Positions 33,246-54,783 of a DNA stretch of 64,000 bases are shown in pieces. The stretch comes from an uncultured Actinomycetota bacterium. Its GTDB lineage: Bacteria; Actinomycetota; Actinomycetes; Mycobacteriales; Jatrophihabitantaceae. The stretch lies in the NCBI GenBank assembly GCA_963850835.1, contig CAWKNB010000021.1, positions 8,525 through 72,524 of the forward strand. Direction: 5' to 3'. The first letter of the stretch is position 1. Each line of letters begins with the position of its first letter. The notes under the pieces are model-generated. The model saw nothing but the letters and a program-made list of their open reading frames with translations. It did not search any database and had not been told where the DNA came from. Both the position numbers and the translations under genes were made by a program.

Positions 33246-33264
33246 TCTATCGGTATGATAGACA
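33246..33264. promoter_or_regulatory. Palindromic operator copy A (TCTA-N9-TAGACA), overlapping a TATGAT -10
   Basis: TCTATCGGTATGATAGACA, in the divergent region between the carbonic anhydrase and ABC operons. Confidence 0.75.
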
Positions 33265-33270
33265 ATACGA

Positions 33271-33351
33271 GTGAACTCCGGAGCGACGTTGACGTGGATG
33301 ACGGTGGTCGGCCGACCGCGCCACGCAGGCCCTTGTTGTCCGACGTCCTGA
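33271..33351 (+). CDS. Putative Cys-containing leader peptide (MNSGATLTWMTVVGRPRHAGPCCPTS)
   Basis: GTG...TGT TGT...TGA, 26 aa, between operator A and the SBP gene. Confidence 0.5.
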   Translation: MNSGATLTWMTVVGRPRHAGPCCPTS

Positions 33352-33412
33352 CTCCCCTCGCCGATCCTTCGTCGCCGGCCACAGCCGCACCAGAACCCAC
33401 GCAGGAAGTGTC

Positions 33413-35011
33413 ATGCAGACATCGCCCGTTCCCGTTCCCACTCGCCGTTCATTCCTGGCCGCAGCCGGTGCCAGCGGCCTGCTCGCGGTCCTGGCCGCGT
33501 GCACCTCCGGCGATCCGAATGCTCCCGAGTCGTCCGGTGCCAGCCAGTCGGCCGCCGGGTCGGCCCGCAAGCGCGGCGGCACCATCAAGGTCGGCATTCC
33601 GGCACCCCCGACCGCGGTGGACCCGGTGACGATGTACGACGGCTCGGCAATCATCATCGTCCAACTCGTTGCCGACTATCTGATCTGGCTCGACAGCGAC
33701 CTGAAGCTCGTGCCCCGCCTTGCGACGAAGTGGACGGCCGAGCAGGGCGGAAAACGCTGGGCGTTCACGCTGCGCTCCGGCGTGTCCTTCTCCGATGGCA
33801 CGCCGCTGACCGCCCAGGCGGTGAAGGCCTCGTTCGACCGGCTCCTCGACCCCAAGAACAAGTCCGCGGCGTTGTCGGCCTTCGATGGCATCCTCGCCAG
33901 TGGCGGGGTGACCATCCGTGACTCGAGGACGGTCGTCTTCACCCTGCAGCGGACTTTCTCCGACTTCCCCTACCTCGTCTCCGCCGGCAACTACAACGCC
34001 GTCATCCTCAAGGCCGATTACGCCGGCGACTTCGCCAAGAAGCCGATCGGGACCGGCCCGTTCCTGCTCGGCAGCTACAGCACATCTGGTGGAGCGACGC
34101 TGACGCGCAACCCGAAGTATTGGCAGTCCGGCAAGCCCTATCTCGACGGCGTGCAGATCCACTTCTATGCCGACAGCCAGGCCCAGACCTTGGCACTGCA
34201 GGGCGGAGCCGTGGACGTCCTGGGCCTCACCCAGATCAACGATGTGCCGACCGGCGGCAATATTGCCATCGACAAGACGCCGGGCACCGGCATCACCACC
34301 TTCACGCTGCGCACGGACAAGGCGCCCTTCGACAAGAAGGAGGTACGGCAGGCCGTCGCATACGCATTGGACCGCCCGGCGATCAACACCGCCACGAACG
34401 ACGGCATCGGCCAGCTCGGCAATGATCACCTGCTGGCGCCGCTGTTCCCGGCCGCGCCGAAGGACATCGCCCAGCGTGCGAAGAACGTGGCGAAGGCGCG
34501 CTCCCTGCTCTCGACGGCCGGGGTCGACAAGCTCGCGTTCACCCTCACCTATGATCCGCCGAGCAAGGACTTCGCCCTCGCCGTCCAGGATCAGCTCAAG
34601 GACGCCGGGATCACCGTCACCCTCGATCAGCAGAGTTCGCAGGCGTTCTACGGCGGCAACCAGACGAAGGACACACCGTGGCTGTTCTCGACGGCTAATC
34701 TGGTGGGTTGGGCCGGGCGCGCCGTACCGAGCCAGTTCGTCGCCCCGATGGTCACCAGCAAGGGGGTGTGGAACGGCTCGAAGTACGCGAACCCGAAGCT
34801 CGACGCGGCGCTCGTCGCCTACGACGCCGCGGCGACGGCTGCCGAGCGGGCGGCGCAGGCCGAGATCATCGCCTCCGCGATGCACGAGGACGTGCCGGTG
34901 ATCATCGCGGTGTGGAACGGCGCAGCCCGTGCCTACGACCGGACCACGTTCGTCGGCGTGCGGGCCCACCCGGAGAGCTTTCTCGACCTGACTGACGTAT
35001 CCCGGGTCTGA
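33413..35011 (+). CDS. ABC transporter substrate-binding protein (family 5, peptide/nickel type), Tat lipoprotein
   Basis: TRRSFL twin-arginine motif, LAAC lipobox, PRLATKW...FTLRSGVSFSDGTPLTA and PIGTGPF. Confidence 0.92.
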   Translation: MQTSPVPVPTRRSFLAAAGASGLLAVLAACTSGDPNAPESSGASQSAAGSARKRGGTIKVGIPAPPTAVDPVTMYDGSAIIIVQLVADYLIWLDSDLKLVPRLATKWTAEQGGKRWAFTLRSGVSFSDGTPLTAQAVKASFDRLLDPKNKSAALSAFDGILASGGVTIRDSRTVVFTLQRTFSDFPYLVSAGNYNAVILKADYAGDFAKKPIGTGPFLLGSYSTSGGATLTRNPKYWQSGKPYLDGVQIHFYADSQAQTLALQGGAVDVLGLTQINDVPTGGNIAIDKTPGTGITTFTLRTDKAPFDKKEVRQAVAYALDRPAINTATNDGIGQLGNDHLLAPLFPAAPKDIAQRAKNVAKARSLLSTAGVDKLAFTLTYDPPSKDFALAVQDQLKDAGITVTLDQQSSQAFYGGNQTKDTPWLFSTANLVGWAGRAVPSQFVAPMVTSKGVWNGSKYANPKLDAALVAYDAAATAAERAAQAEIIASAMHEDVPVIIAVWNGAARAYDRTTFVGVRAHPESFLDLTDVSRV

Positions 35012-35013
35012 CC

Positions 35014-35976
35014 GTGCGTCGGATGCTCGCGCGCCGCCTGCTGACGCTCCCGCTGGTGCTGCTGGCGGTGTCGGCGTTGGTGTTCGTCGCGACGCAGGTG
35101 CTTCCGGGTGACGTCGCACGGGCGGTGCTCGGTCGGGAAGCGTCGGATGAATCGGTGCGCGAGTTGCGCGACCAATTGCACCTCGACGATCCGATCGTCG
35201 CGCAGTATCTGCGCTGGCTGGGTCACTTCGTCACGGGTGACTGGGGCCAGTCGTACACCCTGCGGGTGCCAGTGCGTGAGCTCGTCCTCGATCGACTCGG
35301 CAACAGCATGTTGCTGGCCGGGTTCGCGTTCGTCCTGCTCGTCCCGGTCTCGCTCGGCCTGGGCATCGTCGCCGGCCTCTGGCATGACCGCCCCGTCGAT
35401 CGGGGCATCTCGGTCCTGAGCCTGGTGTTCGGCGCGATCCCCGAGTTCGTGACCGGTGTCGTCCTGTTGCTGGTCTTCGCCGTGCAACTGGGGTGGTTCC
35501 CGGTCTCGGGACAGGTCCTACCTGGCACCGGGCTGGTCGAGCGGCTCTACCACCTCGTGCTGCCCGCAATCACGCTCGTGCTCTTGTGCACCGGTTACGT
35601 CGCGCGCCACGTCCGCGCCAGCACCATCGCGGTCGTGGAGAGTCCGTACGTGCGCGCTTCGGCACTGCGTGGCGTGTCATGGTCGGCGATCGTGCGGCGT
35701 CACGTGTTGCGAAACTCGACGGTCCCGGCGACCAGCGCGCTGGGTGTGCAGGCGCAGTTCCTGCTCGGCGGGCTCGTCGCCGTCGAGTTGCTCTTCGACT
35801 ACCCGGGTATCGGTGCGCTGCTGCTGTCCTCCGCGGTGAACAAGGATCTGCCCACCCTGCAGGCCACGGCGATCGTCCTGGGCTTCATCTACCTGCTGAT
35901 CATGTTGGCCGTCGAGGTCGTGTATCGGCTGTTGGATCCGCGTATCCGTGCTGCAGGCGAGCGGGTGAGCATATGA
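35014..35976 (+). CDS. ABC permease (DppB-like)
   Basis: LPGDVA, QYLRWL...GDWGQS and EAA loop SPYVRASALRG. Confidence 0.92.
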   Translation: MRRMLARRLLTLPLVLLAVSALVFVATQVLPGDVARAVLGREASDESVRELRDQLHLDDPIVAQYLRWLGHFVTGDWGQSYTLRVPVRELVLDRLGNSMLLAGFAFVLLVPVSLGLGIVAGLWHDRPVDRGISVLSLVFGAIPEFVTGVVLLLVFAVQLGWFPVSGQVLPGTGLVERLYHLVLPAITLVLLCTGYVARHVRASTIAVVESPYVRASALRGVSWSAIVRRHVLRNSTVPATSALGVQAQFLLGGLVAVELLFDYPGIGALLLSSAVNKDLPTLQATAIVLGFIYLLIMLAVEVVYRLLDPRIRAAGERVSI

Positions 35977-36836
35977 CCGTCGTGCTCGCGAAGGACACCG
36001 CGCCGACGCTCGAGGACTCGCCGCCCCCGGTCGTCCGGCGGCGCCGCCCGATCGCGCTCGTCATCGGAGTCACGATGATCGGGGTCTGGGTGGTGTCTGC
36101 GATCGCCTGGCCATGGCTCGTCCCGTTCGACCCGGCGCACTTCGACATCACGCACCGGTTCGCCGCCCCGAGTAGGGAGCATCTGCTCGGCACCGATCAG
36201 TTCGGTCGCGACACCTTCTCGCGGCTGCTCGCCGGCGCGCGTCCGGTGCTGGAGGTGGCACCCATCGCCACTGCGGTGTCGGTCGCGTGCGGAACGGCGT
36301 TGGGCCTGCTCGCCGGTGCTTCGGGGGGACGGGTCGACACGGTGATCATGCGAGCACTCGACATCGTGATGGTGTTCCCGGCGATCATCGCAAGCATCCT
36401 GTTCGTGGCTTTACTCGGTCGTTCGACCACAGTGCTCGTGATCGTCATCGGGCTCGCGTTCGTTCCGATCGTCACCCGCAGCGTGCGCGCCGCCACACTC
36501 GTGCAGCGTGAGCTGCCCTACGTCGATGCCGCCCGCCTGCGTGGTGAGCCGCAATGGTCACTGCTGGCTCGCGAGATCCTGCCCAACGTCAACCGCACCG
36601 TGCTCGTCGAGGCGACCTCCCGTCTCGGCGACGCGGTCTTCGCCGCGGCAACGCTGTCGTTCATCGGTCTCGGTCAGCCGCCCGGCTCGCCCGACTGGGG
36701 CGCATCGGTCGCGGACAACCGGTCGTGGTTGCCGATCGCGCCATGGACTGTTCTCGCCCCGGCCCTTGCTATTGCGTCCCTCGTCATCGGCGTGGCGCTC
36801 GTCAGCGACGACCTGCGCTACCGGCTGGACGCCTGA
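35973..36836 (+). CDS. ABC permease (DppC-like)
   Basis: HLLGTDQFGRDTFSRL, YVDAARLRGE and ILPNV; ATGA overlap. Confidence 0.92.
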   Translation: MTVVLAKDTAPTLEDSPPPVVRRRRPIALVIGVTMIGVWVVSAIAWPWLVPFDPAHFDITHRFAAPSREHLLGTDQFGRDTFSRLLAGARPVLEVAPIATAVSVACGTALGLLAGASGGRVDTVIMRALDIVMVFPAIIASILFVALLGRSTTVLVIVIGLAFVPIVTRSVRAATLVQRELPYVDAARLRGEPQWSLLAREILPNVNRTVLVEATSRLGDAVFAAATLSFIGLGQPPGSPDWGASVADNRSWLPIAPWTVLAPALAIASLVIGVALVSDDLRYRLDA

Positions 36837-36837
36837 C

Positions 36838-38610
36838 ATGGACGGGTTGCGCGCACACTCGCTCTCTGTCGATTTCGCGACCCGCCGCGGCCCAGTCCAC
36901 GTGCTGCGATCCGTCGACATCGCCTGCGCACCCGGTCGGATGCTCGGCGTTGTCGGTGAGTCCGGCTCGGGCAAAACCACCCTCGGCCGAGCATTGGGCA
37001 ACGGGCTCGACCCCGGTGCGCGGGTGAGCGGCAAGGTCGAGGTCGACGGCGTGGATGTGCTCGGTCTCTCGGGCCGGGCGCTGCGCGAGTGGCGGGCGTC
37101 CTCGCTCGCCGTCGTCCATCAGGAGGCGGGTGCCTCGCTCGACCCGACGATGCGCATCGGCACGCAGCTCGCCCAGATCCTCGAACTGCACGGCGTGCCG
37201 CGTGCCCGGCGCACCGAACAGGCCGCAGCATTGCTGGATCAGGTACGGCTGCCAACCACTGCGGCCCAGCGCTATCCCTATCAACTGTCCGGCGGTCAAC
37301 AGCAGCGCGTGGTCATCGCGGCCGCCCTGGCCGGCCGGCCCCGGTTGCTCGTTCTCGACGAACCGACCACCGGCCTGGACGCCTCGGTCGAGGCCGGTGT
37401 GCTGGCCCTCATCGAGGAGCTGCGGGTCCAGCTCGACTGCGCTGTCATTCTGATCAGCCACGACCTCGGCCTGGTGGGTCACCTGTGCGACGACGTCACC
37501 GTGCTCCACGCCGGGCGAGTTGTCGAACACGGTGCCGCCGCCGAGGTGCTCACCCGTCCTGACCACCCCTACACGCGCACATTGCTGCAAGCCGTTCCAG
37601 AGCTCGGCGTTCCCCGCAGCCGGCGTCGCCTCACTCCGACGACCGAGGATGGCGAGATCCCGCCAGAACCAGGCGATGCCCTGCTCGAGGTGCGCGACCT
37701 GCGCCGCAGCTACGGGCGACACGTCGCCGTCGACGGCATCGATCTCGACGTGCGGGCCGGTGAGGTGCTCGGCATCGTGGGCGAGTCGGGCAGCGGCAAG
37801 TCCACGCTGGCGCGGGCGATCGTCGGCCTCGGCCCCCGCGGCGGCGGCACCGTTCGCCTCGCCGGCGAGCCGCTGGCCGAGCAGGTGGCGCGTCGTCCGC
37901 GAGAAGTGCTGCGCCGGCTGCAGATGGTCTTCCAGGAGCCCGACGCGACGCTGAACCCGGCGCACACGACCGCTCGGGTGCTGTCCCGCGCGATCCGCAC
38001 GCTCGGCGGCACGCGTTCGGCCGAACAGCTGGCCGAATGGGCGCATCTCGAGCCGGCGCTGCTGCCGGCCCGGACATCGACGCTGTCCGGCGGGCAGAAG
38101 CAACGGGTGGCCATCGCCAGAGCGTTCGCGGGGTCGGCCGACCTGGTGGTGTTGGACGAACCGGTCTCGGCACTGGACGTCAGCGTGCAGGCCCAGATCC
38201 TCGACCTGCTCGCGGACAGCGCAGCCCGCGAGCGCACCGCGTATCTGTTCGTGTCGCACGACCTGGCCGTCATCAGCTACCTCGCGGACCGGGTAGCGGT
38301 GATGTACCGGGGCCAGGTCCTCGAAAGCGGATCGACGACCGACGTCATCGACGGCCCGCACCATCCCTACACCGCCGAGTTGGTCGGCGCGGCCCGACGC
38401 CGGCCGGTGTCTACCGGCACGGGGAAAACGCTCGACCATCGGGCGGATGACCGCGGTTGCCGGTATGCGGACCGCTGCCCGTTGCATCTCGGCGACGTCT
38501 GCGACGAGCAGACGCCGCCACTGCGCGACATCGCGGCGGGGCATGCCGTGCGGTGTCACCTGCCTGTGCCACAACTGCCTGTCAGCTCAACAGAAAGGAG
38601 ATCAGCATGA
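36838..38610 (+). CDS. ABC ATP-binding protein, fused double domain (DppD/F-like)
   Basis: Two Walker A motifs (GESGSGKT, GESGSGKS), two LSGGQ signatures and a C-terminal CRYADRCP...C...C oligopeptide-type tail. Confidence 0.93.
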   Translation: MDGLRAHSLSVDFATRRGPVHVLRSVDIACAPGRMLGVVGESGSGKTTLGRALGNGLDPGARVSGKVEVDGVDVLGLSGRALREWRASSLAVVHQEAGASLDPTMRIGTQLAQILELHGVPRARRTEQAAALLDQVRLPTTAAQRYPYQLSGGQQQRVVIAAALAGRPRLLVLDEPTTGLDASVEAGVLALIEELRVQLDCAVILISHDLGLVGHLCDDVTVLHAGRVVEHGAAAEVLTRPDHPYTRTLLQAVPELGVPRSRRRLTPTTEDGEIPPEPGDALLEVRDLRRSYGRHVAVDGIDLDVRAGEVLGIVGESGSGKSTLARAIVGLGPRGGGTVRLAGEPLAEQVARRPREVLRRLQMVFQEPDATLNPAHTTARVLSRAIRTLGGTRSAEQLAEWAHLEPALLPARTSTLSGGQKQRVAIARAFAGSADLVVLDEPVSALDVSVQAQILDLLADSAARERTAYLFVSHDLAVISYLADRVAVMYRGQVLESGSTTDVIDGPHHPYTAELVGAARRRPVSTGTGKTLDHRADDRGCRYADRCPLHLGDVCDEQTPPLRDIAAGHAVRCHLPVPQLPVSSTERRSA

Positions 38611-39140
38611 CTGCCGCACCTGTCGGCCCGGAGAACGAGTTCGCCGACCTGTCCGGAGAAGTCACCGTGCAACGTCACTGGTTCACCGCCTCCGTCGGCG
38701 GACATGTCAGCGCCGTCGTCTGGGGCACCGGCACACCGCAGTTCGTGGTGCTGCCCGACGACGGTGTGACCGCCCGCGACCTCGACGAACTGGGGGCTCG
38801 CCTGAGCACCCCCGTCGTCCTGGTCGACCGACTCGGCACCGGACGATCGAGCGGTCCCGCACCCTCGACGCCCGCGCGCGAGGCTCGTCCGCTCGCCGAA
38901 GCCGCGTGGTCGTTCGCACCGAAAACCGAAACACTCGTCGGGCTCGGCGGCGGTGGGGCCGCCGCCGCACTCGCCGCAGCCGCGCGAGCCCGCTCGATCA
39001 CCCGCGTCGTGCTCGTCGGAGTCCCGGCGCCTGACAACCCACCACCCGCGCTCGCCGAGCGCGGTATCCAGATCACCACCCATCCCGACACCGACCCAAC
39101 AGCCCCGGCCGCGGTAGCGGCCCTGCTCGCTAGGCAATAG
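38607..39140 (+). CDS. Truncated alpha/beta-hydrolase-fold protein lacking the nucleophile Ser
   Basis: VSAVVWGTGTPQFVVL and VLVDRLGTGRSS. The elbow reads LVGLGGGG. ATGA overlap and SD AAGGAG. Confidence 0.6.
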   Translation: MTAAPVGPENEFADLSGEVTVQRHWFTASVGGHVSAVVWGTGTPQFVVLPDDGVTARDLDELGARLSTPVVLVDRLGTGRSSGPAPSTPAREARPLAEAAWSFAPKTETLVGLGGGGAAAALAAAARARSITRVVLVGVPAPDNPPPALAERGIQITTHPDTDPTAPAAVAALLARQ

Positions 39141-39156
39141 AGAGGAACGGATCACC

Positions 39157-40194
39157 ATGACCACAACCCCTACCGAGAACATCGCCTTGATCGATCTCGG
39201 CCGCGCTCTCGACGGCGACCGCACCGAGCTCGACCGGCTGCGGTTCGCCGGCCAAGACCTCGGCATCATCCAGGTCGTCGATCACGGCGTCGATCAGGCG
39301 CTGATCGAGGAGTTCCACGATCGCATCGCGGCAATCCTGGCCCTGCCTCGCGAGGACAAGATCGAGTTGGCGAGTCCGACCGGGCACCCGTACCGCGGCT
39401 GGCGGCAGTGGCCGGACGATTTCGGTCGACTCGAACTCGAACGGTTCACCTTCGGCAAGTACGACTCGACGGAAGACGCGCGCAACGCGGGTCTCGAGCC
39501 TGAGTACAGCCTGGAGTACGCGCACGCCAACGTCTGGCCGCCGCAGCAGCCGGGCCTGCGGGAGGTCGCGAAGGCCTATCACGCGGCGGCCGATGCACTG
39601 GCACGGCGGGTGCTGGGTGCCTATGCACTCGCGCTCGGGCACGAGCCGTCGGTGTTCCCGGTGGGCGACGGACCGGATCACAGTCGACTGGTCGTGAACA
39701 ACTATCCGACGTGGACCTGGGACGGCTACGACGCGTCGGCGCCGGACGAGCAGAAACTCCTGCTCCTCGAGCACGCCGACGGCAACGTGCTCACCGTGCT
39801 GCACCAACGCGGCGACTACAACGGCTTGCAGGGCCAGCGCGAGGACGGCACCTGGATCACCGTGCCGATCATTCCCGGCGCCCTGCAGGTCTTCTCGGGA
39901 GGCAATCTCGCGCGCTGGACCAACGGCGCGCTGAAGCCGGGCCGGCACCGCGTCGTCGCGGGCGGCAGCGTCACCCGTCTGTCCAGCGGCATGTTCTGGA
40001 GTCCACGCGTCGACACCACCATCGAACCGTTGGCCGCCTTCGTCGGTGACGGCGAGGCGGAGTTCGACCCGGTGGTGATCTGGGACGGCGTCAAGAACGA
40101 CGTCGACGAGTACCTCGCGGTCTTCGGCAGGCCCGAGCAGATCGCGGCCTGGCGCGAAGGCCGCCCGTTCGTCGCCACGTTGGCCGACGCATGA
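39157..40194 (+). CDS. Isopenicillin-N-synthase-family 2OG-Fe(II) oxygenase
   Basis: QVVDHGVD, EHADGNVLTVL (HxD), PGRHRV (distal His) and RLS (RxS). Confidence 0.9.
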   Translation: MTTTPTENIALIDLGRALDGDRTELDRLRFAGQDLGIIQVVDHGVDQALIEEFHDRIAAILALPREDKIELASPTGHPYRGWRQWPDDFGRLELERFTFGKYDSTEDARNAGLEPEYSLEYAHANVWPPQQPGLREVAKAYHAAADALARRVLGAYALALGHEPSVFPVGDGPDHSRLVVNNYPTWTWDGYDASAPDEQKLLLLEHADGNVLTVLHQRGDYNGLQGQREDGTWITVPIIPGALQVFSGGNLARWTNGALKPGRHRVVAGGSVTRLSSGMFWSPRVDTTIEPLAAFVGDGEAEFDPVVIWDGVKNDVDEYLAVFGRPEQIAAWREGRPFVATLADA

Positions 40195-40964: not shown

Positions 40965-40992
40965 CGCCACCTCCGCACGTGTTGGTGAGGAC

Positions 40993-41383: not shown

Positions 41384-41482
41384 TCAGCTGTAGCGCCGCG
41401 CGAGCGTCGCAACGACGTCCGCATCGGAACCGAGCAGCGCCGCGGACACGTAGCCGTGCCACCAGCGGCGAAGCAGCGTCAT
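41384..41482 (-). CDS. Unannotated 32-aa small protein (MTLLRRWWHGYVSAALLGSDADVVATLARRYS)
   Basis: ATG 41482 overlaps the LLM stop (ATGA). It fills the gap almost exactly and has GC3-biased codons. Confidence 0.6.
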   Translation of the reverse strand: MTLLRRWWHGYVSAALLGSDADVVATLARRYS

Positions 41483-42603: not shown

Positions 42604-42625
42604 GCGAATGCTCCGGTCAGGTATT

Positions 42626-45285: not shown

Positions 45286-45304
45286 TGTCCATTATTCCGC
45301 TAGG
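45286..45304. promoter_or_regulatory. Palindromic operator copy B (reverse: CCTA-N9-TGGACA)
   Basis: TGTCCATTATTCCGCTAGG, in the divergent region between the LLM and FMN reductase genes. Confidence 0.65.
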
Positions 45305-45364
45305 TAACATATGCATTGCTGATTTCCCTTGGTTCATCGACCTGCGGACAGGAGGACGACCGTT

Positions 45365-47240: not shown

Positions 47241-47241
47241 G

Positions 47242-47770: not shown

Positions 47771-48674
47771 TCAGGCGCCGACTTCCCGGGGCCCGACGGG
47801 AATGTCGCCGCGCAGGGTGATGCGGTGCATGACGCGACGGAAGTCGGCGTAGTTGAAGTCGGCGTAGTGGGCGGTGCTGCGGTTGTCCCACATGACGACG
47901 TCACCGGGCTGCCACCGGTGCCGGACCATGTGTTCGGGCTTGGTGACGTGCGCAAAGAAGGCGTCGAGCAGACCGCGGCTCTCCGCGTCACTCACGTCGC
48001 GGATGCGGGTCGTGAAGCCGGGATTCACGAACAGTGAGCGTCGTCCTGTCTCAGGATGGACACGCACGACCGGATGAGGGACGGGCTTGAGCTGACGTAC
48101 GGGTTCGCCATCCCACTCGTTGCCCTCGCCGCCACGTCGCTGCTCGAGGTAGTCGGCGAACTCGCGGCTGCCGTCGTGTTCGGCGGTGAGTTGATCCGCG
48201 AGCTCACGCATCGCGGGATGCAGCGAGTCGTAGGCGGCCTCGAGGTCGACCCAGTTCGTGTTCCCGCCTACGGTCGGGATGTTCACGGCGCGCAGGATCG
48301 ATGCCATCGGTGGACGCGGCATGAACGTCACGTCGGTGTGCCACACGTCCGAGCGGCCGCCGTCGAGGCTGTCGAGTTCGTACACCTCGGGATGGTCGGG
48401 TGTCGCGCCCGCAACGACGGGATGCGACACCGTTACTTCACCGATGGCCCGGCCGAGTTCGATCTGGCTGTCGTCGTCGAGGTCCTGTGCGGAGAAGAAC
48501 AGCACCTTGTGCTCGGCGAGCAGATCGCGCAGCGCTCGCGGCATCGCCCTGCGCCACGACGTCACGTAGATCGACTCTGCGGATGCGGGCGGCGAACGAC
48601 GGGACCAGTCGCTCGATCGACCATGTCGACGCTCGGGTCGGTTCGCCGACATCGGTCGTGTGGATGGCGGTCAC
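47771..48674 (-). CDS. tauD: TauD/TfdA-family 2OG-dependent dioxygenase, frameshift ~48545
   Basis: EHKVLFF, WHTDV (HxD), HPVVRVHPETGR, WDNRSTAH and RVMHR. The N-terminus is in the 48438..48674 frame. Confidence 0.88.
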
Positions 48675-48690
48675 AACTCACCTCGCAGGT

Positions 48691-48719
48691 TTGACTTCGC
48701 TTATGTCTACAGAGATTAT
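48691..48719 (+). promoter_or_regulatory. Sigma70-type promoter TTGACT-N17-GATTAT, predicting a leaderless start at GTG 48727
   Basis: -35 at 48691-48696 and -10 at 48714-48719, with a 7-nt spacer to the GTG. Confidence 0.6.
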
Positions 48720-48725
48720 AGACAT
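48703..48725. promoter_or_regulatory. Palindromic operator copy C (perfect ATGTCTA-N9-TAGACAT)
   Basis: ATGTCTACAGAGATTATAGACAT overlaps the -10, in the divergent tauD / ABC region. Confidence 0.8.
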
Positions 48726-48726
48726 T

Positions 48727-48804
48727 GTGAGTGAGACTCGGCGCCGGAGCGGCTGCGGTTGTCCGCGTCGGCAGATCGGCGCGGCCTTGGGCTGTCGACG
48801 CTGA
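48727..48804 (+). CDS. Putative leaderless Cys-containing leader peptide (MSETRRRSGCGCPRRQIGAALGCRR)
   Basis: 25 aa with 3 Cys, starting at the predicted TSS. Its stop lies inside the hairpin at 48800-48837. Confidence 0.65.
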   Translation: MSETRRRSGCGCPRRQIGAALGCRR

Positions 48805-48899: not shown

Positions 48900-49992
48900 A
48901 TGCGCAACTCGTCAACCAGAGCGTTCGCCTCGTCCGGCCGAGCGAGACTGATGCAGGTGGCCGCGCTCGCCAGCACAGCGATGTTGGCGCTCGCGGGATG
49001 CAGCTCGTCCGGTTCGGGCGGCGGCGGCGCTGGTGGAGGTGGCGGAACCGAGGTCGGTGTCGGCTACTTCGAGAGCGCGACGATCGGTCCCGAGGTGCTC
49101 GTGGCCGGCAACGCCGACCTTGCCGGCAAGGTCGGCGGCAAGCTCAAGCTCACGCCGATCGACTCGGGCGTCACCGGTCTCGCGTCGCTGCGCGGCGGCG
49201 CCTTCCCGTTCGCGTCCGGCGTCGGCAACCCGCCGGTCACGGGCGCCATCGCCAACGACACCAAGCTCAAGGTGGTCTTCGCCGAGTACTACGACGCCGC
49301 CCAGCTCATCGTCGGGTCGAAGATCAAGGCAAACGCCGACCTGGCCGGCAAGACGGTCGGTGACCTCCAAGGCTCGTCCGAGGACTACGAGATCCGCGGT
49401 TGGTTGAAGACGCAGGGGCTCGACGGCAAGGTCAAGGTCGTCGGCTTCCCCAGCGAGCAGGCCGTCGAGGCCGCATACAAGTCCGGCCGCATCGACGGCG
49501 GTTACGTCGAGATCGCCCAGGCGCAGGAACTGTTGAAGAACACCGTCGAACCGCACCGTGGTCACGGCCCAGCAGATCGCCAAGCTCGGCTACGCCTCAC
49601 TCAACGTGTTGGTGGTCACCGACGCGTTCGCAAGCAAGAACAAGACGATCGTGCAGAACCTGGTGTGCCAGATGATCAAGGCGCAGGCGAAGGTCGCCGG
49701 TTCCGACGGCGACACCTACATCACCAATGGCTCCAAGCTCGTCGGCGCGACACCTGCGACGGCCATCGCCGCCACCAAGGGCCTGCCGTTCGTGTCGGCG
49801 CAGGACCAGCTGACGTGGTTCGGCACCTCCAAGGATGCGTCGAACAGCAAGATCGCCGACTCCTACGTCAAGACCGGTCAGTTCCTCAAGGAGCAGGGCC
49901 GCGTCACGAGCGTCCCGACGAAGGCACAGATCGGTGCGCACATCGACCCGACCTACGTTCAGCAGGCGGTCAAGGACGGCTGCGGCTCGTGA
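48900..49992 (+). CDS. Taurine/sulfonate ABC substrate-binding lipoprotein (TauA-like), frameshift ~49550
   Basis: Lipobox LAGC, LRGGAFPFASGVGNPP and DLAGKTVG, continuing in the 49558 frame. SD GGAGG. Confidence 0.82.
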
Positions 49993-50810
49993 CCGCGGCC
50001 CCGGAGGCGCCGAGTAGGTCGTCGGGCAACGCGCCGATCGCTGTCGAGATCAACGGCGTTCGCAAGCAGTTCGCCGGCCGCTCCCGACGGTCGGCGGGTC
50101 GCCTCGCGCTCGACGGGTTCGATCTGACCGTGCGCGAGGGCGAGTTCCTGTGCCTGCTCGGCCCGTCCGGGTGCGGCAAGTCGACGCTGCTCAACCTGCT
50201 CGCCGGCTTCTCCGATGCCGACGGCGGCGAGGTGCTGGTGGACGGGTCCCCGGTGCGCGGCCCGGGCACCGACCGGGGCGTGCTCTTCCAGACACCGATG
50301 CTCTTCCCGTGGCTCACCGCGCTGGACAACGTCCTCTACGGCCCGCGTGCCCGCCACGAGAGCGGCAAGCAGGTGCGCGATCGGGCGATCGAACTGCTCG
50401 AGACGGTGGGCCTCGGCAGTGCGGTGCACTCCTACCCGCACGAGCTGTCCGGCGGCATGCGGCACCGGGCCGCGTTCGCCCGGGTGCTGATCAACAAACC
50501 GAAGCTGCTGCTCATGGACGAGCCGTTCGGTGCGCTCGACGCGATCACCCGGGTGGCCATGCAGAGGTTCCTGCTCGATCTGTGGCAACGCGAACGGATC
50601 ACGATCGTGTTCGTCACCCACGACGTCGAGGAGGCCGCGCTGCTCGGCGACCGGGTGTGCGTCATGACCGGCAGCCCCGGACGTGCCCGGTTGCAGTTGA
50701 CCGTCGACCTGCCGCGCCCGCGCACCATCGAGACCACCGAGACGCTCGAGTTCGTGCGCATCAAGCGCCAGATCCGCGAGGCCCTCGAAAGCAGGGAGGA
50801 CGAGCGATGA
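49989..50810 (+). CDS. Taurine/sulfonate ABC ATP-binding protein (TauB-like)
   Basis: LGPSGCGKST, LFPWLTALDNV, ELSGGMRHR, LLMDEPFGALD and FVTHDVEEA; GTGA overlap. Confidence 0.9.
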   Translation: MTAAPEAPSRSSGNAPIAVEINGVRKQFAGRSRRSAGRLALDGFDLTVREGEFLCLLGPSGCGKSTLLNLLAGFSDADGGEVLVDGSPVRGPGTDRGVLFQTPMLFPWLTALDNVLYGPRARHESGKQVRDRAIELLETVGLGSAVHSYPHELSGGMRHRAAFARVLINKPKLLLMDEPFGALDAITRVAMQRFLLDLWQRERITIVFVTHDVEEAALLGDRVCVMTGSPGRARLQLTVDLPRPRTIETTETLEFVRIKRQIREALESREDER

Positions 50811-51662
50811 GTGACACCGACGTGCAGGAGGACTACAAGGTCGTCGTCGACGACGCGGACCTGGAGCTGGCCGAGCCGCGGCAGCGGCGCCGTTTCTCCT
50901 GGGCCCGCATCGGGTTCGGCGTGCTCGGCCTGCTGGTGTTCCTCGCGATCTGGCAGATCGCCGCCCTGATCAAGGACGACCCGGCGATCCTGCCGACGGT
51001 GCCGGCAACGGCAAAGACCTTCTGGCACTACCTGTTCAACGACTACCCGTCCGTCGGCGGACACACGCTTGTGGGGCACGCGCTCACGAGCACGCGCCGC
51101 ATCCTGACGGGCTGGGCCATCGGCGTGATCATCGGCGTGGCACTCGGCGGGGCCGATGGCCTCGCTACGCGTCCTGCGGTTCATGGTCGACCCGATCATC
51201 GAGCTCACCAGGCCGCTGCCGCCGCTGGCCTTTCTTCCGCTGCTCATCGTCTGGTTGGGCATCGACGACGCCCGAAGATCACGTTGATCGTCATCGGCGT
51301 CACCCCGATCATCACCATCGCGACGGTCACGGCGCTCGATGCCGTCCCACAGGAGCTGGTGCAGGCGAGTCGCAGCCTCGGGGCGTCGCCGCTCTGGTCG
51401 TTGCTGCACCGTGCGCCTGCGCGCCGCGTTACCGACGATCATCACGGGCATGCGCCTGGCCATGGGCGGCGCGTGGACCAGCATCGTGGCCGCCGAGCTC
51501 ATAGCCAGCACGAGCGGCCTGGGCTACCTGATCAATCAGGCCGGCCAGAACCTGCAGATGTCCCTGCTCGTCAGCGGCATCGTGGCAATCGCCATCATCG
51601 GGCTCGCGCTCGACAGCCTGTTGCGGCTGCTGCACCGCCGCACCGACCCCACCAGCCGGTAG
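50807..51662 (+). CDS. Taurine/sulfonate ABC permease (TauC/SsuC-like), about 3 frameshifts (~51150, ~51270, ~51410)
   Basis: Pieces STRRILTGW, PIIELTRPLPPLAFLPL, ASRSLGAS and GGAWTSIVAAELIASTSGLGY. Confidence 0.82.
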
Positions 51663-51666
51663 CAGC

Positions 51667-52795
51667 ATGTCTTTGCACCTGCACTGGTACCTGCCCACCA
51701 ACGGCGACGGGCGCGGGATCGTGGGCTCCGGCCGGGCCGGAGCGGGCGGTGTCGGCGAGACCTACGCCGTGGAACGGCAGCCGACCATCGACTACCTCGG
51801 CCAGATCGCCCGCTCGGTCGAGCAACTCGGCTTCGAGGCGGTGCTCACGCCGACCGGTAGTTGGTGCGAGGACGCGTGGCTCACGACGGCGGCGCTGTCG
51901 CAGGTGACCAAACGCTTGAAGTTCCTCGTCGCGTTCCGACCGGGTTTCATCAGCCCGACGCTGGCCGCGCAGCAGGCCGCAGACCTTCCAGCGGATCAGC
52001 GGGGGACGGCTGCTGCTCAACGTGGTCACCGGCGGCGATCCCATCGAACAGCGGCGCTTCGGCGACTTCCTGGCCCATGACGAGCGGTACGCGCGGACCG
52101 CCGAGTTCCTCCAGGTGTTGCGCGGCGCGAGCAGCGGTACGCCGTTCGACTTCACCGGGGACCATTTCCGGGTCGAGGGTGCGACCGCCGCGCTGAGCCC
52201 CTGGGGGATGCCGCCGCTGTTCTTCGGCGGCGCGAGCCCGGCTGCGGAGAACGTCGCCGCGAGCCACGTCGACGTCTACCTCGCCTGGGGTGAGACACCG
52301 CCGCAGATCAAACAACGGCTGGACCGGATGCGCGAAAAAGCCGCAACGGCGGGCCGCGAGCTCACCTTCGGGATTCGCCTGCACGTGCTCAGCCGGGACA
52401 CCGCGAAGCAGGCCTGGGCCGAGGCGCAACGCATGGTCGATGATCTCGACCCGGCCCGGGTCGCCGAGGTGCAGGCGCAACTCGCCGCGATGGACTCGGT
52501 GGGGCAACGCCGCATGCAGACGCTGCACAGCGGCGGGCGCCGCGACGAACTGGAGATCTACCCCAACCTGTGGGCCGGCTACGGGCTGGTCCGCGGCGGG
52601 GCCGGCACCGCGCTCGTCGGCAGCCACGAGGAGGTCGCCGAGCGACTCGAGGAATATCACGCCCTCGGCATCGATCACGCCATCCTGTCGGGTCAGCCGC
52701 ATCTGGAGGAGGCGTACTGGTTCGGCGAGGGTCCCGGCCGGTTGCTTCGCCAGCAGGGTGTCGTGGCCGCCGAGGCGAGGTCAGCGGCCGGGTAA
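51667..52795 (+). CDS. ssuD: Alkanesulfonate monooxygenase-like LLM enzyme, frameshift ~51980
   Basis: HWYLPTNGD, LTPTGSWCEDAW, FLVAFRPG, LNVVTGGD, LEIYPNLWAG, GGAGTALVGSH and EEAYWFGE. Confidence 0.85.
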
Positions 52796-54055
52796 CCCGG
52801 CTGCCTGGTGAATCGCCGGGCCGGCGTAGAGGGCGGCGTGCCCCGACGCCACACGTCCGGCGCGGACCTCGTCCACCGCTGCCCGGAGGGCCTCGACCAG
52901 ATCGGGCATCACCCGCGCATGCAGCGGCGAGAGCATGACATGCAAACCGCCCGGCTGCCGGTTGAGCCACCAGCGACGATCTTCGAGCGCGTCACCAACC
53001 GCCGCCATGTCGAGGGTGTCACTCGTGAACTGCAGCACCGGGCCGTCCGGCGGCGCGGTCAGGCGCAGGCCGTCGATCGTTTCGACGGCGCCGACCAACG
53101 CGCGCCGCGCGGCCAGCACCGCTTGTGCCTTGGCGCGGTAGCCGGCATGCCCGTGATACGTCAGCGCCGCCCATGCTCCGGCAATCGGCGGCGCGGGGCG
53201 CGTGCCCGCTGGTGTCGGGGTGGCGTACAGACCACCACCCCATACCTGGTCGTCGAACCAGATCCGTTTGCCTGCGAGCTCCGGCGTGCCGAACGCGATG
53301 ATCGAAGCGCCCTTGAAGCTGTATCCGTACTTGTGTACGTCGGCGCTGATACTCGTCACTCCGGGGACGCGGAAGTCCCAGGGCGGCACCGGTTCACCGA
53401 GCTCCTCGAAGAACGGCAGCACCAACCCACCCAGACACGCGTCCACATGACACAAGATGTCGCGTTCGAGCGCGAGCCGGGCGACCGGCCCGACCGGATC
53501 GACCACGCCGAACGGGTAGCACGGTGCGCTGGCGACGAGCAGCGCTGTGTCCGCTGTGATCGCCGCCGCCAGGGCCTCGGCGTTCAAGCGTTTGTCGGCG
53601 CCGACAGGTACCCGGACCTGCTCGATGTCGAGCAGGTGACACGCTTTGGCGAACGCCGGATGGGCCGTGGTCGCGGTGATGATCTGCGGGTACTCGATCC
53701 CACGCTCGTGGGCGACGGTGCGCGCGACCGCGACCGCGACGAAGATGGACTCGGTGCCGCCGCTGGTGAGCCCGGCCGCGCCCGCCGGACCGTGGAGCAA
53801 CCCGCTCACCATGTCGGTCGCCTGGATCTCCAACCGGGCAAGGCTCGGGAACTTCATCGGATTCAGGGCGTTCTCGGCGAGGTACTCATTGCTCACCTGC
53901 CGGAGCAGATCCTCGAGGACCGGATCGTCCGGCGGGAAGATCAGGCTGAAGATGCGGCCCTGCCGCCACGGCGCGTCGCCATCACGGTTGGCCCGCAGCC
54001 GCGCCATGACCTCGCCTGGCTCGGTGCCGTCCTCGGGCAACCCGTGGTCGCTCAC
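52781..54055 (-). CDS. Group II PLP enzyme, sphingosine-1-phosphate-lyase-like
   Basis: TSGGTESI, AHPAFAKA, PCYPFGVVDP, CHVDACLGG, SISADVHKYGY (PLP Lys) and WGGGLYATPT.AGTRP; GTGA overlap with the upstream DsbA-fold gene. Confidence 0.85.
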   Translation of the reverse strand: MSDHGLPEDGTEPGEVMARLRANRDGDAPWRQGRIFSLIFPPDDPVLEDLLRQVSNEYLAENALNPMKFPSLARLEIQATDMVSGLLHGPAGAAGLTSGGTESIFVAVAVARTVAHERGIEYPQIITATTAHPAFAKACHLLDIEQVRVPVGADKRLNAEALAAAITADTALLVASAPCYPFGVVDPVGPVARLALERDILCHVDACLGGLVLPFFEELGEPVPPWDFRVPGVTSISADVHKYGYSFKGASIIAFGTPELAGKRIWFDDQVWGGGLYATPTPAGTRPAPPIAGAWAALTYHGHAGYRAKAQAVLAARRALVGAVETIDGLRLTAPPDGPVLQFTSDTLDMAAVGDALEDRRWWLNRQPGGLHVMLSPLHARVMPDLVEALRAAVDEVRAGRVASGHAALYAGPAIHQAAGLPGR

Positions 54056-54660
54056 CGCGGGATGGTCGTGCGTTTGAACTCGTTGAGGTCGGTCCAGCCG
54101 GACAACAGGTCCACGACCCGTTCGACGGTCCGGATCGATGCGGCCGCGGCGGAACCGAGCGGGGCACGGTCCATCAGCCGGACGAACACGGCCTGGTCGC
54201 CGGCAACGAAGGTGGGCACGCCCCACAAGCTGTGCGACTCGGCGTGGCGCACGTGCTCGGCCCGGACCCGGCGGAGGGCTTCGCCGGAATCGACCAGGGC
54301 GAAGACCGGCCCGGACGGCACATCGTTGCCCTCGAGCACGCGCGCGACGGCGGCTCGGTCGTCGAGCTGCTTGGCCTCGTCGTGGCGCAACGCGAACAGC
54401 GCACGGTGCACGGCAGCGAACTCGTCGGGGTGCTCATCGCGTACCACGACACCGACCTGCAGCGCGAAAATGCCGGTGTCCTGCTCGGGCTTGTCCCAGA
54501 CATCGGGTTGGCCCTCCTCGACATGAACCTGCCCCAACGAGAAGGGCACGAAGCCGACCTGCCAGTCGGCTCCAGCAGCCAGACCGGTGAGAACGTGTTC
54601 GTGCGCGTTGCGCGCGAACGGGCAGCGGTAGTCCCAAGTGACGTCGAACGACGTTGTCAT
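54052..54660 (-). CDS. DsbA/thioredoxin-fold protein, single Cys (CPFA)
   Basis: VTWDYRCPFA and WGVPTF (cis-Pro loop). Confidence 0.8.
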   Translation of the reverse strand: MTTSFDVTWDYRCPFARNAHEHVLTGLAAGADWQVGFVPFSLGQVHVEEGQPDVWDKPEQDTGIFALQVGVVVRDEHPDEFAAVHRALFALRHDEAKQLDDRAAVARVLEGNDVPSGPVFALVDSGEALRRVRAEHVRHAESHSLWGVPTFVAGDQAVFVRLMDRAPLGSAAAASIRTVERVVDLLSGWTDLNEFKRTTIPR

Positions 54661-54694
54661 GCCAACCCAACCCAACGCTCATGCACAGATATTC

Positions 54695-54711
54695 CCTACT
54701 TGTCCAGTAGA
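54695..54711. promoter_or_regulatory. Palindromic operator copy D (CCTA-N9-TAGA)
   Basis: CCTACTTGTCCAGTAGA, upstream of the dsbA-like gene. Confidence 0.55.
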
Positions 54712-54764
54712 GATTACGAAGACCGCCGCGTCAACAAGCGAGCAGGCGGTCCACGGGTTATATT

Positions 54765-54783
54765 CCTATCAATTTTATAGACA
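54765..54783. promoter_or_regulatory. Palindromic operator copy E (CCTA-N9-TAGACA)
   Basis: CCTATCAATTTTATAGACA, immediately before the SD AGGAG of the FAD/TPR gene. Confidence 0.75.

What the first reader, a model, noticed from the sequence alone, without database searches (positions are those of the whole stretch)
33246..54783. One palindromic operator, five copies, in all four divergent promoters of a 25-kb sulfur island, with no local regulator
Seen: TCTA-N9-TAGACA (33246-33264), TGTCCA-N9-TAGG (45286-45304, reverse orientation), ATGTCTA-N9-TAGACAT (48703-48725, perfect), CCTA-N9-TAGA (54695-54711) and CCTA-N9-TAGACA (54765-54783). All are AT-rich islands with exactly 9-nt spacing, one or two per divergent intergenic region. 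I did not find the motif upstream of the genes I checked outside the island. In A, C and E the first T of TAGACA is also the last base of a -10-like hexamer, which implies a repressor. Known: similar spaced palindromes are bound by Rrf2/CymR-type cysteine regulators. Inference: a trans-encoded sulfur-starvation regulator controls eight transcription units here, which assigns many unknown genes to sulfur metabolism.
Basis: partly seen in the sequence, partly recalled or inferred. Interest (0 to 1): 0.88.

Follow-up and report, generated by a model that had tools for sequence, protein, structure and literature searches.

The report
Sulfur-regulon operator, likely Rrf2 repressor
A 25-bp palindromic DNA switch sits in all four two-way promoters of a sulfur-scavenging gene island in a Jatrophihabitans soil actinobacterium, recurs in front of sulfur genes across that bacterial family, and is probably bound by a small CymR-like (Rrf2) repressor encoded at the end of the sulfate-importer operon elsewhere in the genome.

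Summary
All five sites are at the stated coordinates. With a weight matrix built only from sites in other genomes of the genus, they rank 2, 3, 4, 5 and 8 among about 5 million positions in this genome. Rank 1 lies upstream of a cysteine-dioxygenase/rhodanese operon.

The full motif is a 25-bp palindrome, WWTGTCTAB-N7-VTAGACAWW. Across Jatrophihabitantaceae it precedes sulfur genes: cdo, subI-cysTWA, sirA-cysH, metY, tauD, sulfonate monooxygenases and sulfotransferases.

The genome has one full Rrf2 gene. It is cysteine-free and is the last gene of subI-cysT-cysW-cysA, and that operon carries the motif in its promoter in G000 and at least nine other genomes, across five genera in all. Two family members that lack this operon also lack the motif upstream of cdo.

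At site C the operator covers the spacer, the -10 and the start of a leaderless Cys-rich short ORF, which is repressor geometry. Binding and the effector remain untested.

This is a new member of a known kind, of moderate interest.

The parts
33242..33266 (.). Operator A (25 bp, TAACTCTATCGGTATGATAGACAAT). It lies between the beta-carbonic-anhydrase/DUF4395 unit (leftward) and the Opp-like ABC operon (rightward).
   Evidence: 27.9 bits, genome rank 4. An orthologous site (30.4 bits) lies 47 nt upstream of the beta-CA ortholog in G002 (L106). It overlaps TATGAT at 33254-33259. A weak overlapping second match lies at 33233-33257 (8.6 bits).
45284..45308 (.). Operator B (CTTGTCCATTATTCCGCTAGGTAAC), the weakest copy. 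It lies between the luciferase-like monooxygenase unit (leftward) and the FMN-reductase unit (rightward).
   Evidence: 16.1 bits, genome rank 8. The FMN-reductase ortholog in G011 has a strong site in the same position (L034).
48702..48726 (.). Operator C (TATGTCTACAGAGATTATAGACATT), a perfect 7+7 palindrome between tauD (leftward) and the tauABC/ssuD-like operon (rightward).
   Evidence: 29.9 bits, rank 2, and the only exact TGTCTA-N9-TAGACA in the genome. It is conserved upstream of tauD in G012 and G002.
48691..48719 (+). Sigma-70-type promoter of the tauABC-like operon: -35 TTGACT (48691-48696), a 17-nt spacer, and -10 GATTAT (48714-48719). The operator fills the spacer and overlaps the -10.
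   Evidence: the only promoter-like match in the region, against 0.0 expected from shuffles. Both hexamers are conserved in the three-genome alignment. A TATAAT reads on the minus strand at 48715-48720, facing tauD.
48727..48804 (+). Short Cys-rich ORF (25 aa, 3 Cys). Its GTG start is the first base after operator C. It is the probable leaderless transcript start and a cysteine-sensing leader.
   Evidence: G012 and G002 also have a 25-aa or 16-aa ORF ending in CCR that starts 1-2 nt after their operator. It resembles the polycysteine leaderless sORF attenuators of mycobacteria (bioRxiv 10.1101/834739).
54691..54715 (.). Operator D (ATTCCCTACTTGTCCAGTAGAGATT), close to the start of the DsbA-like/PLP-enzyme unit (leftward).
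   Evidence: 23.0 bits, rank 5. Its centre is 43 nt from ATG 54660.
54761..54785 (.). Operator E (TATTCCTATCAATTTTATAGACATA). It directly abuts the Shine-Dalgarno AGGAG (54786-54790) of the FAD/NAD-binding protein gene (ATG 54797).
   Evidence: 29.8 bits, rank 3. The same operator-GGAG-ATG layout precedes the ortholog in G008 (L023).
32045..33183 (-). Transcription unit 1: beta-carbonic anhydrase plus DUF4395.
   Evidence: Pfam Pro_CA, DUF4395.
33413..41382 (+). Transcription unit 2: Opp-type ABC importer (SBP_bac_5, two permeases, fused ATPase), a 177-aa ORF (38607-39140) with no Pfam match, a 2OG-Fe(II) oxygenase and two DUF427 genes.
41479..45232 (-). Transcription unit 3: three luciferase-like (SsuD-type) monooxygenase genes. 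The promoter-proximal one (44035-45232) is split by a frameshift in this assembly.
   Evidence: Orthologs are intact and lie in one operon with rrf2 in G099.
45365..47757 (+). Transcription unit 4: FMN reductase, flavin reductase, GST-like protein and nitroreductase.
47771..48674 (-). Transcription unit 5: TauD-family dioxygenase. The likely start is GTG 48674, which aligns with the ATG of the orthologs; the ORF also extends to ATG 48652.
48900..52795 (+). Transcription unit 6: taurine/sulfonate-type ABC importer (NMT1-like binding protein, ATPase, permease) plus a luciferase-like monooxygenase. Several frames are broken in this assembly.
   Evidence: Gene order is conserved in G012 and G002.
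52781..54660 (-). Transcription unit 7: DsbA-like protein and a PLP-dependent decarboxylase/lyase-like enzyme.
54797..57466 (+). Transcription unit 8: an 889-aa FAD/NAD(P)-binding protein.
   Evidence: The ortholog in G008 is preceded by the motif.

Best explanation
The five sites are operators of a global sulfur regulon in Jatrophihabitans. The full element is a 25-bp palindrome, WWTGTCTAB-N7-VTAGACAWW.

The most likely binder is a homodimer of the genome's single full Rrf2-family protein (G000:C12:532907-533362, 151 aa, no cysteine, CymR-like). Its gene is the last in the subI-cysT-cysW-cysA sulfate-importer operon, about a megabase-scale distance away on another contig, so it acts in trans and also regulates itself.

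When sulfur is sufficient, the dimer sits on the core promoter (spacer, -10 and transcript start) and blocks RNA polymerase at both promoters of each divergent pair. When sulfur is scarce it leaves, and eight transcription units for sulfonate, sulfate-ester, peptide and other organosulfur scavenging switch on together with sulfate uptake and cdo-rhodanese. At least one importer operon (the tauABC-like one, possibly also the Opp-like one) has a second layer of control: a Cys-rich short leader ORF that starts at or just after the operator.

Shown here: the sites exist, they are non-random, they are conserved in front of sulfur genes, and the Rrf2 gene is linked to the motif.

Inferred: that this protein binds the motif, that it represses, and the physiological signal.
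For: **Specificity**
- A matrix built from relatives only ranks the five sites 2, 3, 4, 5 and 8 in the genome. Rank 1 is upstream of cdo-rhodanese.
- Non-coding DNA holds 9 hits above 15 bits, against 0.85 in shuffles.

**Conservation**
- The strict pattern gives 44 sites against 18 for the reversed control in 31 genomes of the genus.
- 39 of 61 cdo loci across the family carry a site of 20 bits or more upstream of cdo, and 49 of 61 carry one above 12 bits. Only 3 other hits occur in about 600 kb of flanks.
- Orthologous sites exist for A, B, C and E.
- Columns outside the search pattern are also constrained. Positions -1/+21 are never G or C in 42 half-sites of a 70% GC genome.

**Regulator link**
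- There is one full Rrf2 gene. It has no Cys, scores above the TIGR00738 cut-off, and its nearest solved relatives include S. aureus and B. subtilis CymR.
- It ends the sulfate ABC operon, whose promoter carries the motif in G000 and 47-49 nt upstream of subI in G016, G002 and G045. The pattern sites lie 3.8-3.9 kb from rrf2 in G015 and G046 too. Variant sites occur in three more genera.
- In G099, from another family, rrf2 ends an operon made of orthologs of the window's monooxygenase and FMN-reductase genes.
- The two family genomes without rrf2 and subI have no pattern hits and no motif upstream of their cdo.
- No other transcription-factor gene recurs next to the sites.

**Geometry**
- The 25-bp size and A/T-only ends fit the 23-bp NsrR operator, where wing arginines enter the minor groove at both ends (PMC9338935). 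The wing RG motif is present here (SQRGADGGY).
- At C the operator spans -25 to -1 of TTGACT-17-GATTAT, with a leaderless ORF start conserved in three genomes.
- At E it abuts the Shine-Dalgarno sequence in two genomes.
Against: - No binding, expression or transcript-start data exist.
- The protein scores only 81 bits against the CymR equivalog model, whose cut-off is 195. It is not a CymR ortholog in the strict sense.
- The motif at G000's own subI promoter is weak (15.8 bits, rank 10).
- Rrf2 orthologs occur in 103 of 151 Mycobacteriales genomes, but the strict motif is enriched only in this family.
- In G099 the promoter of the rrf2-containing operon has only a 12.8-bit match, although the recognition helix is identical.
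- The joint loss of rrf2, subI and the cdo site in genus g21 is a single evolutionary event.
- The promoter tool finds a full -35/-10 pair only at C.
- cdo, a cysteine-degrading enzyme, is an odd member of a starvation regulon unless it acts on other thiols.
- In G000 the sirA-cysH promoter has no site.
Confidence: 0.62

Rival explanations
1. The motif is a real sulfur-regulon operator, but another trans-encoded regulator binds it. Candidates include a TetR-family McbR-like protein (same GTCTA/TAGAC pentamers), a LysR-type protein (CTA-N9-TAG contains T-N11-A), or a GntR/HutC-type protein. On this view the subI-cysTWA-rrf2 operon is just one more target, and Rrf2 binds something else.
For: - The half-site pentamers equal those of the C. 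glutamicum McbR box TAGAC-N6-GTCTA (my recollection of Rey et al. 2005).
- In G012 the tauD site also reads TGTCTATAGACA, with no spacer.
- The core fits T-N11-A.
- The motif at G000's own subI promoter is weak, and G099's rrf2 operon lacks a good match.
Against: - The McbR arrangement TAGAC-N6-GTCTA has no exact copy in the genome and none in the island promoters.
- Conserved positions reach +/-12 from the centre, wider than a single TetR dimer site or a 15-bp LysR box (my inference).
- No TetR, LysR or GntR gene recurs beside the sites in about 40 loci inspected.
- LysR sites usually lie near -65 next to a divergent lysR gene, whereas these sit on the core promoter.
- rrf2 is the only regulator gene repeatedly linked to the motif.
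Confidence: 0.22
2. The protein that binds the motif, Rrf2 or another, is an activator, or a dual regulator that switches these promoters on under sulfur limitation in the manner of CysB/Cbl or SsuR. It would then not be a repressor.
For: - Sulfur-starvation genes are activator-controlled in Proteobacteria (CysB/Cbl) and in C. glutamicum (SsuR, CysR); this is from my own knowledge.
- At A, B and D the promoter elements are undefined.
- Several sites lie 60-250 nt from start codons, which would suit upstream activation.
Against: - At C the site lies between -35 and +1 of a 17-nt-spacer promoter, with a conserved leaderless start.
- At E and its G008 ortholog the site touches the Shine-Dalgarno sequence, so it is at or after the transcript start.
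- Sites upstream of subI and metY end 26-35 nt before the ATG, leaving room only for a leader.
- The characterised cluster-less Rrf2 sulfur regulator CymR is a repressor (PMC9338935; PMC8557817).
Confidence: 0.1
3. The 'motif' is no operator. It would be AT-rich promoter DNA (-10-like hexamers) that looks palindromic by chance in a GC-rich genome.
For: - All sites are AT-rich and overlap -10-like hexamers: TATGAT, GATTAT/TATAAT, and TATTGT at subI.
- B and D are degenerate.
Against: - Two-fold symmetry with a fixed 9-nt spacing is kept in dozens of sites from many genomes.
- Hits are almost confined to sulfur genes.
- Shuffled intergenic DNA gives about 10 times fewer hits above 15 bits.
- The reversed-pattern control is 2.4 times lower in the genus.
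- General promoters of this genome do not score.
Confidence: 0.02

Closest known systems
CymR of Bacillus subtilis and Staphylococcus aureus (cluster-less Rrf2-family master repressor of cysteine and sulfur metabolism)
   Same: - Both are Rrf2 winged-helix proteins without the three Fe-S cysteines.
- CymR structures 3T8R and 2Y75 are among the nearest solved relatives.
- Both have a regulon of sulfur uptake, organosulfur scavenging and cysteine-related genes.
- In both, a long palindrome-like operator sits on core promoters, giving repression.
   Different: - The score against the CymR equivalog model is only 81 bits, with a cut-off of 195.
- The gene sits at the end of the sulfate ABC operon.
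- The protein has no cysteine at all, so the thiol-oxidation sensing described for S. aureus CymR (PMC9338935) is impossible.
- Dependence on CysK/O-acetylserine is unknown, and the conserved C-terminus is ...DAWLPR.
[quoted passage not shown]
   Same: - Both are actinobacterial (Mycobacteriales) cluster-less Rrf2 proteins tied to sulfur starvation.
- Rrf2 orthologs of the Jatrophihabitans protein are found in 103 of 151 genomes of the order.
   Different: - Those papers give no operator and no regulon, and they note that the Rhodococcus gene has no sulfur-gene neighbours.
- Here an operator consensus, a regulon and an autoregulatory gene context are defined.
- I did not establish orthology to the Rhodococcus protein.
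McbR of Corynebacterium glutamicum (TetR-family repressor of the sulfur regulon; box TAGAC-N6-GTCTA)
   Same: - Both involve an actinobacterial global sulfur regulon under a repressor.
- The half-site pentamers GTCTA/TAGAC are identical.
   Different: - The half-sites are in the opposite order, with a 9-nt rather than a 6-nt gap.
- The McbR arrangement is not found in this genome.
- No TetR gene is linked to the sites.
- The McbR box is quoted from memory.
Other Rrf2 operators: the S. coelicolor NsrR hmpA1 operator (23 bp) and, from memory, the RirA IRO box TGA-N9-TCA and the 25-bp IscR sites
   Same: - Both are two-fold symmetric sites of 23-25 bp.
- Recognition helices read half-sites about 1.5 turns apart.
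- Wing arginines enter AT-rich minor grooves at both ends (PMC9338935).
- The trinucleotide-N9-trinucleotide core is like RirA's.
   Different: - The sequences differ.
- Those regulators carry Fe-S clusters and sense NO, iron or cluster status.
Polycysteine leaderless short-ORF attenuators of mycobacteria (bioRxiv 10.1101/834739)
   Same: A Cys-rich short ORF begins at the predicted transcript start of the tauABC-like operon in three genomes.
   Different: In mycobacteria these leaders were proposed to act instead of a dedicated transcription factor. Here the leader is stacked directly behind an operator, so the two layers appear to be combined.

Membership tests
Rrf2-family regulator (candidate binder, G000:C12:532907-533362) | Rrf2 winged-helix domain (Pfam PF02082 / TIGR00738) above the curated cut-off | tested here: met
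   PF02082 scores 114.6 bits against a cut-off of 30. TIGR00738 scores 112.4 bits against a cut-off of 73.3.
CymR-type (cluster-less) Rrf2 sulfur repressor | Absence of the three conserved Fe-S ligand cysteines | tested here: met
   The 151-aa sequence contains no cysteine. The same holds for the 18 aligned orthologs.
CymR-type (cluster-less) Rrf2 sulfur repressor | Equivalog-level similarity to CymR (NCBIfam NF047409, cut-off 195 bits) | tested here: not met
   81 bits. CymR is the best named equivalog but lies far below the cut-off, so this protein works like CymR but is not a strict CymR ortholog.
CymR-type (cluster-less) Rrf2 sulfur repressor | Regulon made of sulfur uptake, organosulfur use and cysteine/methionine genes | tested here: met
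   Genes next to the motif include tauD, tauABC, SsuD-like monooxygenases, FMN reductases and beta-CA. Further ones are cdo-rhodanese, subI-cysTWA, and sirA-cysH/cysG, metY and sulfotransferases.
CymR-type (cluster-less) Rrf2 sulfur repressor | Operator overlaps the core promoter (repression) | tested here: inconclusive
   Met at C and likely at E. Promoter elements are undefined at A, B and D. No transcript-start data exist.
CymR-type (cluster-less) Rrf2 sulfur repressor | Physical binding of the protein to the operator; dependence on CysK and O-acetylserine | not testable with these tools
   This needs EMSA, footprinting or ChIP. Only the genomic linkage is shown.
CymR-type (cluster-less) Rrf2 sulfur repressor | Operator sequence matches the published CymR box | not tested
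   I hold the CymR box only from memory. By eye there is no resemblance to WWTGTCTAB-N7-VTAGACAWW.
McbR (TetR) sulfur regulon of Corynebacterium | Inverted repeat TAGAC-N6-GTCTA in target promoters | tested here: not met
   There is no exact copy in the genome. The 32 one-mismatch copies are GC-rich and look like coding sequence, and none lies in the island promoters. The sites here are GTCTA-N9-TAGAC.
LysR-type regulator box | T-N11-A core in a roughly 15-bp dyad, usually near -65 and next to a divergently transcribed lysR gene | tested here: not met
   The T-N11-A core is present (CTA-N9-TAG). However, the sites sit on the core promoter at C and E, the conserved columns extend to 25 bp, and no regulator gene is adjacent.

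The most novel reading that the evidence does not exclude
The cysteine-free Rrf2 protein encoded behind cysA is the long-sought master repressor of sulfur-starvation genes across Mycobacteriales, which includes the rhodococci whose dsz genes are sulfate-repressed. It would sense sulfur status by a mechanism that needs neither an Fe-S cluster nor a reactive thiol. It would work in series with polycysteine leaderless leader ORFs, so that one promoter integrates a transcription-factor signal and a ribosome-based cysteine signal.
Probability: 0.2. Interest if true: 0.7.

Novelty: new member of a known kind. Interest (0 to 1): 0.5.

Why it matters
How Mycobacteriales switch on sulfur scavenging is poorly understood. 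The Rhodococcus papers I read state that CysB, Cbl, CmbR and McbR homologues are missing there. They only guess at a CymR-like Rrf2 protein, with no binding site (PMC8557817, PMC9426449).

This work defines three things for one family of the order:
- an operator consensus;
- a regulon of at least ten transcription units in this genome, and more in relatives;
- a specific candidate regulator with an autoregulatory gene context.

That turns a guess into a one-protein, one-site experiment. It also places several unknown genes in the sulfur-limitation response: DUF427, DUF4395, the FAD/NAD-TPR protein, the PLP lyase-like enzyme and the cdo-rhodanese pair. Finally, it shows a transcription-factor operator stacked directly on a Cys-rich leaderless leader ORF. 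The mycobacterial work did not anticipate that combination.

The motif itself appears confined to Jatrophihabitantaceae, which limits its reach.

Tried and rejected
1. **Local regulator.** Pfam scans of 50 window ORFs found no DNA-binding protein near the island. ORFs at 1-13 kb were not scanned.
2. **First matrix.** The matrix built from the five sites themselves is circular. I replaced it with a matrix built from relatives only.
3. **Non-sulfur hits.** Weak hits near a P450, an SDR, an acyl-CoA dehydrogenase and an HpcH gene on C22 dropped to 11 bits or below with the independent matrix. I treat them as noise.
4. **McbR-type arrangement.** Not present.
5. **Order-wide spread.** The strict pattern is not enriched outside the family. 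In family f17 the rrf2 neighbour is an AraC-type gene, not cysA. In G099 and G031 I found no convincing copy of this motif at the rrf2-linked operons.
6. **sirA-cysH promoter of G000.** No site, unlike in G006, G015 and G046.
7. **Literature.** Searches for the half-site words plus sulfur, for Rv1287, and for the SEED-style annotation gave no described operator.
9. **Another recurrent regulator beside the sites.** I found only one OmpR-type gene, 372 nt from a single site (L111). I dismissed it as a singleton.

Full report
**1. What is in the window**

The window is G000:C21:8525-72524 of a 4.97-Mb, 70% GC actinobacterial assembly. Record titles of close relatives identify the genus as Jatrophihabitans (Jatrophihabitantaceae, Mycobacteriales).

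Pfam scans show that 28.7-57.5 kb is an organosulfur-scavenging island. It contains:
- an alkylsulfatase;
- a beta-carbonic anhydrase with DUF4395;
- an Opp-type ABC importer followed by a 2OG oxygenase and two DUF427 genes;
- three luciferase-like (SsuD-type) monooxygenases;
- an FMN reductase, a flavin reductase, a GST and a nitroreductase;
- TauD;
- a taurine-type ABC importer with another monooxygenase;
- a PLP enzyme with a DsbA-like protein;
- an 889-aa FAD/NAD protein.

The genes form four divergent pairs, giving eight transcription units. Several genes are split by frameshifts, as is the sulfate-importer operon elsewhere in the genome. These look like assembly indels rather than decay.

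**2. The observation**

All five sites read as claimed at the stated coordinates. The exact pattern TGTCTA-N9-TAGACA occurs once in the genome, at site C.

To avoid circularity I searched the 31 genomes of the genus for that pattern with at most one mismatch. This gave 44 sites against 18 for the reversed control. I then built a 25-bp matrix from 15 of those foreign sites. That matrix ranks the window's sites 2 (C), 3 (E), 4 (A), 5 (D) and 8 (B) among about 5 million positions. Only eight positions reach 16 bits.

With the earlier 25-bp matrix, which also included the window's own sites, non-coding DNA holds 9 hits above 15 bits, against 0.85 in shuffles. Columns that were not part of the search pattern are also constrained. 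The bases flanking each half-site are never G or C in 42 half-sites, and the first spacer base is never A. The full consensus is WWTGTCTAB-N7-VTAGACAWW. B and D are degenerate copies.

**3. It marks sulfur genes, here and in relatives**

The best site in the genome (31 bits) lies 81 nt upstream of a cysteine-dioxygenase gene, which is followed by a rhodanese gene. Of 61 cdo loci fetched from named Jatrophihabitantaceae and related MAGs, 39 carry a site of 20 bits or more just upstream of cdo, and 49 carry one above 12 bits. Only three other hits occur in about 600 kb of flanking DNA.

Genes next to the other genus sites are:
- metY-type sulfhydrylase (five genomes);
- sirA-cysH divergent from a cysG-like gene (three genomes);
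- orthologs of the window's beta-CA, FMN reductase, FAD/NAD protein, monooxygenase and tauD;
- NMT1- and SBP_bac_3-type binding proteins;
- arylsulfotransferase-like proteins and sulfotransferases.

Sites A, B, C and E therefore have orthologous counterparts in other species. At order level the strict pattern is enriched only in this family. It occurs in 11 of 15 family genomes, and in no more than half of the genomes of any other family sampled with at least ten genomes.

**4. The regulator**

No DNA-binding protein was found among the window ORFs I scanned. The genome holds one full Rrf2 gene, C12:532907-533362. The protein has 151 residues and no cysteine. It scores above the TIGR00738 cut-off. 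Its best named equivalog is CymR, at 81 bits, far below the cut-off of 195. Its nearest solved relatives are 4CIC and the CymR structures 3T8R and 2Y75.

It is the last gene of subI-cysT-cysW-cysA. The tenth-ranked site of the genome lies about 45 nt upstream of subI.

In the genus the ortholog (81-93% identity) is present in 29 of 31 genomes. Five of the pattern sites lie 3.8-3.9 kb from it on the same contig. Fetching three of these loci shows the intact operon, with the site centre 47-49 nt upstream of subI. Four genomes from three further genera of the family keep a variant site there.

Further links to the regulator:
- In G099, from another family, rrf2 (77% identical, identical recognition helix) is the last gene of an operon of orthologs of the window's monooxygenase and reductase genes.
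- The two family genomes that lack rrf2 also lack subI. They have no pattern hit and no motif upstream of their cdo. This is one evolutionary event, so it is supportive rather than decisive.
- No other regulator gene recurs beside the sites.
- The 25-bp dyad with A/T-only ends matches the footprint logic of Rrf2 dimers. The NsrR operator is 23 bp, with wing arginines in the minor groove at both ends (PMC9338935). The wing RG motif is conserved here.

**5. Mechanism**

At site C the tool finds TTGACT-17-GATTAT, with none expected by chance. Both hexamers and the operator are conserved in G012 and G002. In all three genomes a Cys-rich short ORF starts 1-2 nt after the operator. This places a leaderless transcript start there and puts the operator at -25 to -1. 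A TATAAT on the other strand faces tauD, so one dimer would occlude both promoters.

At E, and at its G008 ortholog, the operator abuts the Shine-Dalgarno sequence. At subI and metY it ends 26-35 nt before the ATG.

This geometry indicates repression, as with CymR. At A, B and D the promoter elements are undefined. The signal is unknown. The protein cannot use an Fe-S cluster or a thiol, and CysK dependence is untestable here.

**6. Comparison and novelty**

The system works like CymR but fails the CymR equivalog test, and its operator differs. The half-site pentamers equal those of the McbR box as I recall it, but the McbR arrangement is absent.

Rhodococcus papers propose a CymR-like Rrf2 protein as a global sulfur regulator, without any site. 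I found no paper describing this operator.

I therefore class this as a new member of a known kind. It is a clean, testable regulon reconstruction. Its added feature is an operator stacked on a polycysteine leader ORF; in mycobacteria such leaders were thought to act in place of a transcription factor (bioRxiv 10.1101/834739).

**7. Verdict**

- Confidence that the element is a sulfur-regulon operator is about 0.95.
- Confidence that this Rrf2 protein binds it is about 0.7.
- Confidence in the full statement, including repression, is 0.62.
- Interest is 0.5.

Noticed in passing
window 48727-48804; L002 from 2449; L003 from 2439: A Cys-rich short ORF starts directly after operator C in three genomes. 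The sequences are G000 MSETRRRSGCGCPRRQIGAALGCRR, G012 ...VCAACCR and G002 ...FHCCR. This looks like a leaderless polycysteine attenuator of the tauABC-like operon. A similar 26-aa ORF ending ...GPCCPTS starts at 33271, 5 nt after operator A.
   Followed up: partly
window 44035-45232, 48900-52795; G000:C12:533416-537190: Many genes are split by frameshifts: a luciferase-like monooxygenase, the tauABC/ssuD-like genes, and subI-cysT-cysW. Their orthologs in relatives are intact. These are most likely indel errors of the assembly, not pseudogenes.
   Followed up: partly
G000:C14:107831-108894: The strongest site in the genome precedes a cysteine-dioxygenase-like gene that overlaps a rhodanese gene by 4 nt. 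The pair is conserved in 56 of 61 loci. Membership of a sulfur-starvation regulon suggests a thiol-scavenging role (for example a mercaptopropionate-type dioxygenase) rather than cysteine disposal.
   Followed up: partly
G000:C12:856080-856160: Upstream of sirA-cysH in G000 there is no operator. There is instead a short ORF (MAHAAPMLTSRRHIDLLRVATATC) ending in Cys, which may be a different, leader-based control of sulfite reduction.
   Followed up: no
L184 (G031:C26), about 100 nt upstream of subI: In another family with the cysA-rrf2 arrangement, the subI promoter carries a perfect GC-rich 9-2-9 palindrome, GATCGGCCG-TT-CGGCCGATC. The Rrf2 recognition helix differs there (PKKFLEAILAECRRAG). 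This may be a diverged operator.
   Followed up: no
L195, L196 (genus g21 cdo loci): The two family genomes without rrf2 and subI share a different conserved upstream block before cdo (...GTACCGTGTGCGTCGTGACG...). This suggests the control element there was replaced.
   Followed up: no
L103 (G042:C282) 650-683 and 2553-3615: Four motif copies lie within 3 kb, around a sulfotransferase gene and a second cdo-rhodanese pair. Two of them overlap with a 9-nt offset, like the weak second match at 33233-33257 beside operator A. This may indicate cooperative binding in tandem.
   Followed up: no
window 26397-28687: About 2.3 kb before the alkylsulfatase gene has no confident gene call. Its long ORFs have no Pfam match, and no operator precedes the alkylsulfatase.
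   Followed up: no
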